Shown: positions 34,601 to 37,600 of the stretch, in pieces
Numbering within the stretch: the first letter of the stretch is position 1
Layout of the letters: every line of letters starts with the position of its first letter
Assembly (NCBI RefSeq): GCF_000027125.1
Contig: NC_017626.1
DNA from: Escherichia coli 042
GTDB lineage: Bacteria; Pseudomonadota; Gammaproteobacteria; Enterobacterales; Enterobacteriaceae
Length of the DNA stretch: 64,000 nt
Direction: 5' to 3' (one strand)
Made by a program: the position numbers

Positions 34601-37600
34601 CATGTGGGTTATGTGATCGTCGTCATCGGCGCTTTACTGGCGACGGCTTCAGCCATCAACGCGAACCTGTTCGCCGTGTTTAACATCATGGACAACATGG
34701 GCAGCGAACGCGAACTGCCGAAGCTAATGAATAAATCCCTGTGGCGGCAGAGTACCTGGGGCAACATCATTGTCGTGGTGTTGATTATGCTGATGACGGC
34801 GGCACTAAATTTAGGCTCACTCGCCAGCGTTGCCAGCGCCACCTTTTTGATTTGCTATCTGGCGGTGTTTGTGGTGGCGATCCGCCTGCGTCATGATATT
34901 CACGCCTCGTTGCCGATTCTTATCGTTGGTACGTTGGTGATGTTGTTGGTGATCGTTGGCTTTATCTACAGCCTGTGGTCCCAGGGCAGCCGTGCGTTGA
35001 TATGGATTATTGGTGCAATCTTACTCAGCCTTATTGTGGCAATGGTCATGAAGCGCAATAAAACCGTATAACACCTCTCTGTGCGCAGTACAGCCTGTAC
35101 TGCGCCTTTGTCTTTAATTCAAATTACCTTTCTTATTCCTTTAATAAATAAGTCACAAAAAAATGATATATACGCGATAAATCTGTGATGCTAATCACTT
35201 ATTACCGTGGATTATTCTTAATGTGTATGATGGTAATCTAAAAGTCGTAGTGTATTCTAAATAAATAACGTATAAGCTTTTTAGCTGCATTTCTTTGCCA
35301 ATATCAATGATCGACAAAAGAGATGCACAAGTTATTACCCTTCTTAATAAAATGAGACTGGTTATAAAAACCAGTTAAAATAATGACCTGGAAGGAAGTG
35401 ACTTATCTATGGCGCGATTCCAGTTTAAAAGCCGTAAAAATAATGGGTTTATTTTTTTAATAAGTTTTATGGTGATGGGAGAAGCTACAATTGCTGCACC
35501 GCTGCCACAATGGGCGAACGCCCCAGCGGTAACGCCAGTTGCCCAATTATCTTTACAGGAAAGTATATTACGCGCCTTTGCGCGAAATCCCGACGTCACT
35601 CAACAGGCGGCGCAGATAGGTATTGGCGAAGCGCAAATTGATGAAGCCAAAAGTGCCTGGTATCCGCACGTTGGATTAACCGGCAACGCGGGGCCGTCCC
35701 GACAAACGGACTCCAGCGGCAGGCTTGATAACAACGTTTCGTATGGCATAACCCTGACACAACTGGTGTATGACTTTGGTAAAACTAACAACGATATCAA
35801 TCTGCAAACTGCCGCCCGTGACAGCTACCGCTTTAAATTGATGGCAACCTTAACCGATGTTGCAGAGAAAACGGCGACTGCCTATATGGAAGTCAGTCGT
35901 TATCAGGCTTTGTGCGATGCGGCTCAACGCAATATTCACTCGCTGGAAAACGTCTACAACATGGCAGCATTGCGTGCTAACGCTGGCCTGAACTCGTCGT
36001 CGGATGAATTACAGGCCCAGACGCGCATTGCCGGAATGCGCTCAACGCTGGAGCAATATCAGGCGCAGATGGCAAGCGCCAAAGCGCAACTGGCGGTGCT
36101 CACTGGCGTACAGCCGGAGGCGATAGCCGCGCCACCTGCTGAATTAGCCGAGCAGCCGGTATCGCTGAAAAATATTGATTACCAGTCCATCCCGCTGGTG
36201 CTGGCGGCAGAAAACTTACGCCAGTCAGCACAGTACGGCGTGGAAAAAACGAAAGCGCAATACTGGCCAACGCTGAGTATTCAGGGGGGCAAAACGCGCT
36301 ACCAGACCAGCGACCGCTCGTATTGGGATGATCAGCTACAACTGAACGTTAACGCGCCGCTGTATCAGGGCGGCGCGGTTTCTGCCCAGGTGCAACAGGC
36401 CGAAGGGCAACAAAAAATCTCTGCCTCGCAGGTCGAACAGGCAAAACTGGATGTGCTGCAACGAGCGTCTGTGGCATATGCCAACTGGACAGGCGCATGG
36501 GGTCGCGAAGAAGCCGGTTTAGCACAATCCGAAAGTGCGCACAAAACGCGAGATGTGTACCAAAATGAATATAAATTGGGCAAACGCAGTCTGAATGATC
36601 TATTAACCGTCGAGCAAGATGTCTTTCAGGCGCAATCGGCTGAAATAAATGCCAATTATGATGGCTGGGTCGCCGCCGTAAATTATGCCGCTGCGGTGAA
36701 TAACCTTATTCCATTAGCGGGAATTAAACAGGGCTTATACAACGACTTACCCGACTTGAAATAATCCTGCCATTATTAATATCAGGTATGCCTCGTTGTT
36801 AAGTGATTACCTTTGTCTTATTTAGATAAATGGACTCGCTAAGGATATGCGCCATTTATCAGGAATGCCATTATGAGCCTGATTATTGATGTTATTTCGC
36901 GTAAAACATCCGTCAAACAAACGCTGATTAATCCTGGCGACGTCACGGTTGTTATTTATGAGCCTTCCGTGGTGCAGGTTCATGCTCAGGCCTCTGCCGT
37001 TGCGCGTTACGTCCGTGAAGGAAATGACCTGCTGATCTATATGCAGGACGGCACGGTGATCCGCTGCAACGGTTATTTCCTGCAAGCGGCGAATACCGCT
37101 GAACAATCGGAACTGGTGTTTGCCGATGGACAACAGCTCACCCACGTCACCTTTGCCGATACTGCTGCGGGTGGATTAGCCCCCGTAGAACTGACTGCCC
37201 AGACCACCGCAATTGAAAGCATTGCGCCATTTCTTGATACCGTTGCTCAGACCAGCACCTTCCCGTGGGGATGGCTGGCGGGGGCGGCGGTAGGCGGTGG
37301 CGCGCTTGGTGCACTGCTGGCAAGCGGTGGCGATGGCGACTCGAAAACGGAAGTGATTAGTAACCCTACGCCACCCGCTGAGCCTGGCAACGCCACTCCA
37401 TCATTTTTAGTTACCGATAATCAGGGCGATCAGCGCGGCATTCTCGCCACCAATGACATCACCGATGATACCACGCCAACCTTTAGCGGCAGCGGGCAGG
37501 CGGGGGCGACTATTCAGATTAAAGACAGTAACGGCAATACTATTGCCAGTACTCAGGTAGACAACAACGGTCACTGGAGTGTCTCGTTACCCACGCAAAG

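What the first reader, a model, noticed from the sequence alone, without database searches (positions are those of the whole stretch)
36873..37400. Adhesin N-terminus resembles a LapA-type retention module with a TAAG di-alanine motif
The N-terminal roughly 100 residues (MSLIIDVISRKTSVKQTLINPGDVTVVIYEPSVVQVHAQA...LIYMQDGTVIRCNGYF...) are followed at residues 97-100 by TAAG (in FADTAAGGLAPVELTAQ) and then a glycine-rich hydrophobic stretch (FPWGWLAGAAVGGGALGALLASGGDGD). In LapA-like adhesins a periplasmic protease (LapG) cuts at such a TAAG motif under c-di-GMP control by LapD, releasing the adhesin from its TolC-like pore. No lapG or lapD-like gene is in the island, so either the module is regulated in trans or the motif is vestigial.
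Basis: inference. Interest (0 to 1): 0.45.

Follow-up and report, generated by a model that had tools for sequence, protein, structure and literature searches.

The report
E. coli adhesin N-terminus, not LapG-cleavable
The start of this giant E. coli surface adhesin (SiiEA, O-island 28) is a known BapA-type N-terminal domain, not a LapA-type retention module. Its "TAAG" cleavage-like motif is almost certainly a chance, lineage-specific match, and the gene is broken in this strain.

Summary
The sequence is exactly as described: Met at 36873, TAAG at residues 97-100, and a Gly/Ala-rich hydrophobic stretch at residues 130-156. The protein is the named E. coli adhesin SiiEA of O-island 28, flanked by a TolC-like pore, an LssB-type ABC exporter and a HlyD adaptor.

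Its N-terminus is a BapA "prefix-like" domain (PF22783, NF033677, NF047714). It fails every test for the LapA retention-module family:
- No hit to NF033682.
- hhalign probability 11.5% against real LapA modules.

The TAAG is absent from the nearest homologues. In real LapA modules, DP...AAG is invariant at similar divergence. The TAAG also lacks the targeting helix and DP turn, and it sits in a loop inside the confidently folded domain (residues 1-122).

No lapG or lapD lies in the window or next to five homologous loci. What the family does conserve is the beta domain followed by an uncharged Gly/Ala thread. This is most plausibly a LapG-independent N-terminal stopper, but that is untested.

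In this window siiEA carries two frameshifts and a nonsense codon.

The parts
35409..36764 (+). [not shown]
   Evidence: TIGR01844 415 bits, PF02321. Annotated the same way in Ecol_316.
36873..57650 (+). siiEA (OI-28 RTX/BapA-related giant adhesin), 20778 nt. Disrupted here into four ORFs: 36873-38207, 38293-45819, 45816-51071 and 51201-57650.
   Evidence: Same length as, and 98.3% identical to, the intact 6925-aa siiEA of Ecol_316. ORF list.
36873..37238 (+). BapA-type 'prefix-like' N-terminal beta domain, residues 1-122
   Evidence: PF22783 residues 5-132 (70.6 bits, cut-off 27). NF033677 residues 5-69 (72.1 bits, cut-off 35). NF047714 residues 1-230 (507 bits, cut-off 425). AF2 gives 11 strands; 10-residue-block mean pLDDT is 83-98 to residue 120.
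37161..37172 (+). TAAG tetrapeptide, residues 97-100
   Evidence: Lies in the loop between strands 89-94 and 105-107. Not conserved in homologues. One distant homologue, P0132, shares FADTAAG.
37260..37340 (+). Uncharged Gly/Ala-rich hydrophobic thread (F130-A150, GxxxG-rich) followed by the SGGDGD acidic/Gly cap
   Evidence: The segment is conserved across the family: median best 19-residue Kyte-Doolittle score 1.67, and 45 of 50 sequences have no charged residue. LapA-type linkers score 0.89. AF2 pLDDT is below 50 and no helix is predicted.
37341..37400 (+). Pro/Thr-rich linker leading to the first Ig-like extender (Big_13 starts at residue ~181)
38201..38207 (+). Frameshift: GGGG where the intact gene has GGG, creating the TAA stop at 38205-38207
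   Evidence: Found in none of 943 complete E. coli genomes that match this stretch.
45794..45798 (+). -1 deletion (ATTAACACC to ATTACACC) that restores the original frame
51069..51071 (+). TGG to TAG nonsense codon
   Evidence: Found in none of 936 genomes that match this stretch.
57654..59816 (+). T1SS ABC permease/ATPase, LssB/LapB subfamily
   Evidence: TIGR03375 835 bits (cut-off 693). TIGR01846 (HlyB type) scores 390 bits, below its cut-off of 725. Same subfamily as the exporter next to a Pseudomonas retention-module adhesin.
59813..60988 (+). HlyD-family periplasmic adaptor
   Evidence: TIGR01843 328 bits

Best explanation
Residues 1-176 are the N-terminal module of SiiEA, the type-I-secreted giant adhesin of E. 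coli O-island 28.

Shown:
- The module has three parts: a ~122-residue all-beta BapA 'prefix-like' domain, a conserved uncharged Gly/Ala-rich thread of about 20 residues capped by Gly/Asp, and a short Pro/Thr linker into the Ig-like extender array.
- This module is a different family and a different fold from the LapA/MpIBP retention domain.
- The TAAG sits in a variable surface loop of the folded domain and is a lineage-specific coincidence, not a LapG site.

Inferred:
- T1SS substrates leave C-terminus first, and the exporter is of the LssB/LapB adhesin type with its own TolC-like pore.
- The beta domain therefore most likely acts as a LapG-independent stopper that cannot pass the pore. The ~55-residue Gly/Ala/Pro-rich segment (about 190 A if extended) would lie in the ~140 A channel and hold the adhesin on the surface.

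In this particular window the gene carries three disruptions, so only a 444-aa fragment without a secretion signal would be made from this start. The alternative is that the lesions are sequencing or assembly errors.
For: - Family assignment.
- Whole-module conservation in 143 representative clusters, with TAAG not conserved.
- AF2 model with mean pLDDT 82.8, a fold spanning 1-122, and TAAG in the loop at 95-104.
- hhalign probability 11.5%.
- LapA-type modules keep D99, P100, A108, A109 and G110 invariant in 39 sequences at 43-81% identity.
- The hydrophobic thread is family-wide.
- LssB-type ABC exporters in SiiEA, in two homologue loci, and in a Pseudomonas retention-module locus.
- No PF06035 or LapD within +/-10 kb (less where the contig ends) in five homologous loci.
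- OI-28 is experimentally required for early EHEC adherence and responds to Ca2+/RstA: PMC12758282.
- Gene lesions.
Against: - No experiment addresses surface retention of SiiEA, or of any BapA_N-type N-terminus, in the literature I could search.
- Salmonella BapA is described, from my own knowledge of Latasa et al. 2005, as secreted and only loosely cell-associated. That would argue for weak retention.
- AF2 predicts no defined structure for the Gly/Ala thread, so its location (pore lumen or a membrane) is open.
- The rest of the source genome could not be searched for lapG or lapD.
- One distant homologue (P0132) has the identical heptapeptide FADTAAG at the aligned position.
Confidence: 0.6

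Rival explanations
1. The N-terminus is a LapA-type retention module, and TAAG is a functional or formerly functional LapG site. A LapG/LapD pair encoded elsewhere in the genome would control it through c-di-GMP.
For: - TAAG matches the [T/A/P]AA[G/V] pattern and lies within the first 150 residues (criteria from 10.1101/198937).
- The exporter is LssB/LapB type.
- A Gly-rich stretch follows the motif.
- One distant homologue shares FADTAAG.
Against: - No match to NF033682 even at E<=10, while the LapA control scores 149.9 bits.
- hhalign probability 11.5%.
- No targeting helix and no DP turn, and the motif lies inside the folded domain (definition in PMC13090378).
- The motif is absent from all near homologues P0013-P0031.
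- No lapG or lapD in the window or at five homologous loci.
- Empty-vector E. coli lysates are the negative control in the published LapG-family cleavage assays.
Confidence: 0.04
2. The conserved uncharged Gly/Ala segment is a true membrane-embedded, glycine-zipper-like helix. It would tether the N-terminus in the inner or outer membrane. The beta domain would have another role, such as docking on the ABC transporter, pacing secretion, or adhesin-adhesin contacts in the matrix, rather than acting as a steric plug in the pore.
For: - Best 19-residue windows reach Kyte-Doolittle >=1.6 in 30 of 50 family members, and 45 of 50 have no charge.
- G133-G137-G141 and G142-G146-A150 spacing.
- G142 is nearly invariant.
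- LapA-type linkers are not hydrophobic, with a median score of 0.89.
Against: - AF2 gives pLDDT below 50 and no helix for residues 133-152.
- With 8 Gly in 21 residues, the segment is a poor helix former.
- Only ~27 residues separate it from the first Ig-like domain. That is too short to cross the periplasm and the pore if the segment sat in the inner membrane.
- SiiEA's own window scores only 1.40.
Confidence: 0.2
3. Nothing functional is present in this strain. The N-terminal ORF is the leftover of a decaying pseudogene, so its features are under no current selection.
For: - Three disruptions are specific to this sequence.
- siiEA is also annotated as frameshifted, internally stopped or deleted in other E. 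coli.
Against: - Flanking DNA is 99.95% identical to Ecol_316, where the gene is intact. The lesions are therefore very recent or are errors.
- The two frameshifts bracket the part of the gene that holds 277 of its 352 mismatches. That pattern suggests repeat misassembly.
- The N-terminal 176 residues are identical to those of the intact orthologue.
Confidence: 0.45

Closest known systems
[not shown]
   Same: Passes all three curated models. It has the same four-gene tolC-like / adhesin / ABC / HlyD arrangement between ybaT and cueR. It has Ig-like Big_13 extenders, a C-terminal FG-GAP/VCBS-like region and RTX-like repeats.
   Different: In this window the gene is interrupted three times. The TAAG loop variant is confined to the E. 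coli lineage plus one distant relative.
LapA-type retention module (NF033682; P. fluorescens LapA, M. primoryensis MpIBP anchoring domain, PDB 5IX9) with a LapG/LapD c-di-GMP switch
   Same: Both are N-terminal beta-rich domains at the trailing end of a T1SS-secreted giant adhesin. Both are followed by a Gly-rich, low-complexity segment long enough to span a TolC-like pore. Both have an LssB/LapB-type ABC exporter and a dedicated TolC-like gene.
   Different: - Different family and fold: ~122 residues here versus ~66 in LapA, with no sequence, profile or structural match.
- No conserved helix-DP-[T/A/P]AAG cleavage cassette.
- The linker is hydrophobic and uncharged rather than polar.
- No lapG or lapD nearby.
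Salmonella SiiE (SPI-4), whose N-terminal moiety and the SiiAB proton channel control retention and release
   Same: An enterobacterial T1SS giant adhesin made of Ig-like repeats. It is retained without proteolytic processing (PMC6272769). It is also the source of the gene name.
   Different: There are no siiA or siiB genes in the island. The N-terminus is all-beta with no coiled coil. NCBI classes the protein as BapA-related, not SiiE-like.

Membership tests
LapA-type retention module / LapG substrate | Sequence match to the curated retention-module model NF033682 (retention_LapA) | tested here: not met
   No hit even at E<=10. The LapA N-terminus used as positive control scores 149.9 bits against a cut-off of 50.
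LapA-type retention module / LapG substrate | Profile-level homology to bona fide LapA-type modules | tested here: not met
   hhalign of A1 (50 BapA_N-type N-termini) against A2 (39 LapA-type): probability 11.5%, 46 columns.
LapA-type retention module / LapG substrate | Fold of the solved cell-surface anchoring domain (MpIBP, PDB 5IX9) | tested here: not met
   [not shown]
LapA-type retention module / LapG substrate | [T/A/P]AA[G/V] motif in the N-terminal ~150 residues | tested here: met
   TAAG at residues 97-100. Chance expectation is 14% for the pattern and 3% for TAAG itself.
LapA-type retention module / LapG substrate | The di-alanine motif is conserved among homologues | tested here: not met
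   None of P0013-P0031 (36-61% identity in those spanning the site) has the motif. The aligned positions read DAAV, GEAS, GDAS, GEVA, ADTV, EAVP and so on. In LapA-type modules A108, A109 and G110 are invariant in 39 sequences.
LapA-type retention module / LapG substrate | Targeting helix and DP turn immediately upstream of the scissile AA (PMC13090378) | tested here: not met
   The upstream sequence is SELVFADGQQLTHVTFAD. It is predicted as strands 80-84 and 89-94 and has no DP. The LapA control has helix 87-95 and invariant D99-P100.
LapA-type retention module / LapG substrate | The cleavage site lies between the folded domain and the unstructured conduit-spanning segment | tested here: not met
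   TAAG is in a loop. Strands 105-107 and 109-114 and the conserved SxxPLL motif follow it, with 10-residue-block mean pLDDT 93-97. Pfam's domain boundary extends to residue 132.
LapA-type retention module / LapG substrate | lapG (PF06035 BTLCP protease) and lapD encoded in the same genome | not testable with these tools
   Absent from the 64-kb window, which is colinear with annotated Ecol_316. Absent within +/-10 kb (less where the contig ends) of five homologous loci. The rest of the source genome is not available, and E. coli genomes has no protein-search mode.
LapA-type retention module / LapG substrate | C-terminal RTX motif Dx[L/I]x4GxDx[L/I]xGGx3D (Smith et al. algorithm) | tested here: inconclusive
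   The strict pattern gives 0 matches in the intact orthologue. Looser RTX-like repeats are present, such as GGNGSD and GSNFNDTLTGSSGDNQLEGRGGNDTL.
LapA-type retention module / LapG substrate | LapB/LssB-type ABC exporter | tested here: met
   TIGR03375 scores 835 bits (cut-off 693). The exporter beside a Pseudomonas retention-module adhesin scores 941 bits on the same model.
BapA/Bap/LapF prefix-like domain; SiiEA | Scores above the curated cut-offs of PF22783, NF033677 and NF047714 | tested here: met
   70.6 bits (cut-off 27), 72.1 bits (cut-off 35) and 507.4 bits (cut-off 425).
BapA/Bap/LapF prefix-like domain; SiiEA | Adjacent dedicated T1SS genes (TolC-like, ABC, HlyD) | tested here: met
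   The same arrangement is seen in homologue loci L007 and L012.
BapA/Bap/LapF prefix-like domain; SiiEA | An uninterrupted ORF joining the N-terminal module to the C-terminal secretion signal | tested here: not met
   Extra G at 38201-38204, -1 deletion at ~45796, and TAG at 51069-51071.
Salmonella SiiE-type retention | Accessory MotAB-like SiiA/SiiB genes and an N-terminal coiled coil | tested here: not met
   The island has four genes and no such genes. The N-terminus is all-beta.

The most novel reading that the evidence does not exclude
BapA_N-type N-termini could define a second, LapG-independent class of anchoring device for type-I-secreted giant adhesins. These N-termini combine a ~120-residue beta domain with a conserved uncharged Gly/Ala-rich, glycine-zipper-like thread. 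They are found in at least 143 clusters at 50% identity across Proteobacteria. In this reading the hydrophobic thread is itself a functional element lodged in the TolC-like pore or in a membrane, and release, if it happens, uses a mechanism not yet described.
Probability: 0.35. Interest if true: 0.5.

Novelty: already known. Interest (0 to 1): 0.2.

Why it matters
[quoted passage not shown] Showing that it is not a LapG/c-di-GMP-released LapA-type adhesin stops a wrong regulatory model being transferred to E. coli. It also points to the conserved beta domain and Gly/Ala thread as the parts to mutate. For this particular window the practical message is smaller: the motif is a coincidence and the gene is probably inactive or mis-sequenced.

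Tried and rejected
- The word-indexed homologue search with residues 1-176 returned only E. coli/Shigella fragments and said nothing about conservation. The exhaustive representative search replaced it.
- A sequence search of the PDB gave only spurious weak NDUFA11 hits.
- A literature search for 'SiiEA' gave OCR noise plus one gene-table mention. PMC5869472 is not held, so its preprint was used.
- I tried to harvest a LapG sequence from a Pseudomonas retention-module locus (P0232). That locus has no lapG or lapD within 10 kb, so no LapG-based search of E. coli was run. E. coli genomes offers no protein mode in any case.
- Searches for a published statement on LapD or LapG in Enterobacteriaceae or E. 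coli found none.
- I considered that TAAG might be a conserved family feature, because P0132 shares FADTAAG. I rejected this because it is 1 of ~105 N-termini, the loop is F-[APV]-D-[TA]-[GA]-rich so the heptapeptide is easy to reach, and its locus has no lapG or lapD within the contig: 10 kb upstream, ~1 kb downstream.
- Other [TAPS]AA[GV] hits in homologues fall at residues ~125-150 inside the Gly/Ala thread, which is a composition effect.
It was validated by its NF033682 hit and by 95-99% identity to database Pseudomonas proteins.

Full report
**Observation**

- TAAG is at residues 97-100 (nt 37161-37172).
- The stretch FPWGWLAGAAVGGGALGALLASGGDGD is at residues 130-156 (nt 37260-37340).
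- The ATG is preceded by an AGGA ribosome-binding site.

The 20,778-nt gene (36873-57650) has the same length as, and is 98.3% identical to, the intact 6925-aa siiEA of E. coli Ecol_316. It differs by three disrupting lesions:
- an extra G in the run at 38201-38204, creating TAA at 38205-38207;
- a compensating -1 deletion at ~45796;
- a TGG>TAG nonsense codon at 51069-51071.

Neither the G insertion nor the nonsense codon occurs in any of ~940 complete E. coli genomes that carry the locus. The flanks are 99.95% identical to Ecol_316. Of the gene's 352 mismatches, 277 lie between the two frameshifts, inside the repeat array. The lesions are therefore either very recent or assembly/sequencing errors in the repeats.

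**What the locus is**

The window is E. coli chromosome (maa ... acrAB ... copA-glsA-ybaT | island | cueR), colinear with annotated Ecol_316. The island has four genes:
- a TolC-family pore (35409-36764);
- the adhesin;
- an ABC exporter of the LssB subfamily (TIGR03375, 835 bits, above its cut-off; the HlyB model scores below its cut-off);
- a HlyD adaptor.

**Family of the N-terminus**

Residues 1-230 match NF047714 (adhesin_SiiEA, 507 bits). Residues 5-69 match NF033677 (BapA prefix-like). Residues 5-132 match Pfam PF22783 BapA_N.

No match to NF033682 (retention_LapA) appears even at E<=10. As a positive control, the LapA N-terminus scores 149.9 bits on that model.

A profile-profile comparison of 50 BapA_N-type N-termini (A1) with 39 LapA-type modules (A2) gives 11.5% probability. 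That is no detectable homology.

**Structure**

AlphaFold2 with the 50-sequence alignment gives mean pLDDT 82.8.
- The model is an 11-strand all-beta domain spanning residues 1 to ~122 (10-residue-block mean pLDDT 83-98).
- TAAG lies in the loop between strands 89-94 and 105-107.
- Residues 133-152 have pLDDT below 50.

**Is TAAG a LapG site?**

The published substrate definition is a beta retention domain, then a targeting helix, a conserved DP turn, [T/A/P]AAG, and then the unstructured conduit-spanning segment (PMC13090378; 10.1101/198937). SiiEA departs from it in several ways.
- TAAG is preceded by beta strands (SELVFADGQQLTHVTFAD).
- There is no DP.
- TAAG is followed by further strands and a conserved SxxPLL motif that belong to the fold.
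- A cut there would nick a domain, not detach it.

The exhaustive search found 143 homologous clusters. The whole 1-165 layout is conserved, but TAAG is not. None of the nearest relatives P0013-P0031 (36-61% identity in those that span the site) has [TAPS]AA[GV] in the first 210 residues. The aligned positions read DAAV, GEAS, GDAS, GEVA, ADTV and EAVP.

In LapA-type modules at 43-81% identity, D99, P100, A108, A109 and G110 are invariant. Motif hits in more distant BapA_N proteins fall mostly at ~125-150, inside the Gly/Ala thread.

One distant protein, P0132, shares FADTAAG at the same position. Its locus has no lapG or lapD within the contig, which covers 10 kb upstream and ~1 kb downstream.

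By composition alone, [TAP]AA[GV] arises in 14% of shuffles of the first 200 residues and TAAG in 3%.

**LapG and LapD**

Neither gene is in the window. Neither lies within +/-10 kb (less where the contig ends) of five homologous loci.

The rest of the source genome cannot be searched with these tools. From my own knowledge, LapD-type receptors and BTLCP proteases are not part of the described E. coli c-di-GMP repertoire. Empty-vector E. coli lysates serve as the negative control in the published LapG-family cleavage assays.

**What is conserved, and the likely mechanism**

Three elements define the family:
- the beta domain;
- an uncharged Gly/Ala-rich segment of about 20 residues, with a median best 19-residue Kyte-Doolittle score of 1.67, no charge in 45 of 50 sequences, and G142 nearly invariant, against a score of 0.89 in LapA-type linkers;
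- a poly-Gly/Asp/Ser cap.

About 55 residues separate the domain from the first Ig-like extender. That is about 190 A if extended, enough to span a ~140 A TolC-type channel (the channel dimensions are from general knowledge).

The exporter belongs to the same LssB subfamily as the one beside a Pseudomonas retention-module adhesin. T1SS substrates exit C-terminus first. The most economical reading is therefore an N-terminal stopper that holds the adhesin in its dedicated pore. This is functionally analogous to a retention module, but it is a different family and has no LapG release switch. It is inference; no experiment on any BapA_N module was found.

The main rival is that the Gly/Ala segment is a membrane-embedded glycine-zipper helix. 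Hydropathy supports this rival. Three things weigh against it: AF2 gives no helix and low confidence, Gly content is high, and only ~27 residues separate the segment from the first Ig domain.

**Verdict**

- The LapA/LapG interpretation is not supported.
- A generic 'N-terminal anchor' analogy remains plausible.
- The object is an already named and recently studied adhesin, here apparently inactivated.
- Interest is low. The one open and moderately interesting question is how BapA_N-type adhesins are retained.

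Noticed in passing
window 38201-38207, ~45796, 51069-51071: siiEA is broken by a +1 frameshift, a compensating -1 frameshift and a nonsense codon. The +1 frameshift and the nonsense codon are absent from ~940 other complete genomes (the -1 deletion was not checked). The two frameshifts bracket the repeat segment that holds 277 of the gene's 352 mismatches to Ecol_316. The flanks are 99.95% identical. This pattern suggests repeat misassembly or a recombination patch rather than slow decay.
   Followed up: partly
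window ~21707-23055 (by colinearity with L001 4997-6345): An IS3-family IS1397 copy lies between gsk and ybaL, as in strain Ecol_316.
   Followed up: no
window 62104-63858 (- strand): A 584-aa ORF corresponds to a 'YadA-like family protein' (trimeric autotransporter adhesin) downstream of cueR. It is longer than the 349-aa CDS annotated in Ecol_316. It is a second adhesin-type gene next to the island.
   Followed up: no
window 60985-60988: The cueR start codon overlaps the stop of the HlyD-family gene by 4 nt (ATGA). The island therefore abuts cueR with no intergenic space.
   Followed up: no
[not shown]
   Followed up: partly
P0132 residues 93-99; L013 10001-15583: A distant BapA_N-type protein (35% identity) carries the identical heptapeptide FADTAAG at the aligned position but lacks the Gly/Ala hydrophobic thread. 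No lapG or lapD within the contig (10 kb upstream, ~1 kb downstream).
   Followed up: partly
L007 32733-34196 and 35310-36041: Next to the homologous adhesin/T1SS locus of another enterobacterial genome (CP035738.1) lie a GerE-EAL protein and a stand-alone EAL protein. This could be a c-di-GMP link of a different kind from LapD.
   Followed up: no
L008 10001-21553: A 3850-aa BapA_N-type adhesin sits on a conjugative-plasmid-like contig (TraI, TraD, TraG) with no adjacent T1SS genes.
   Followed up: no
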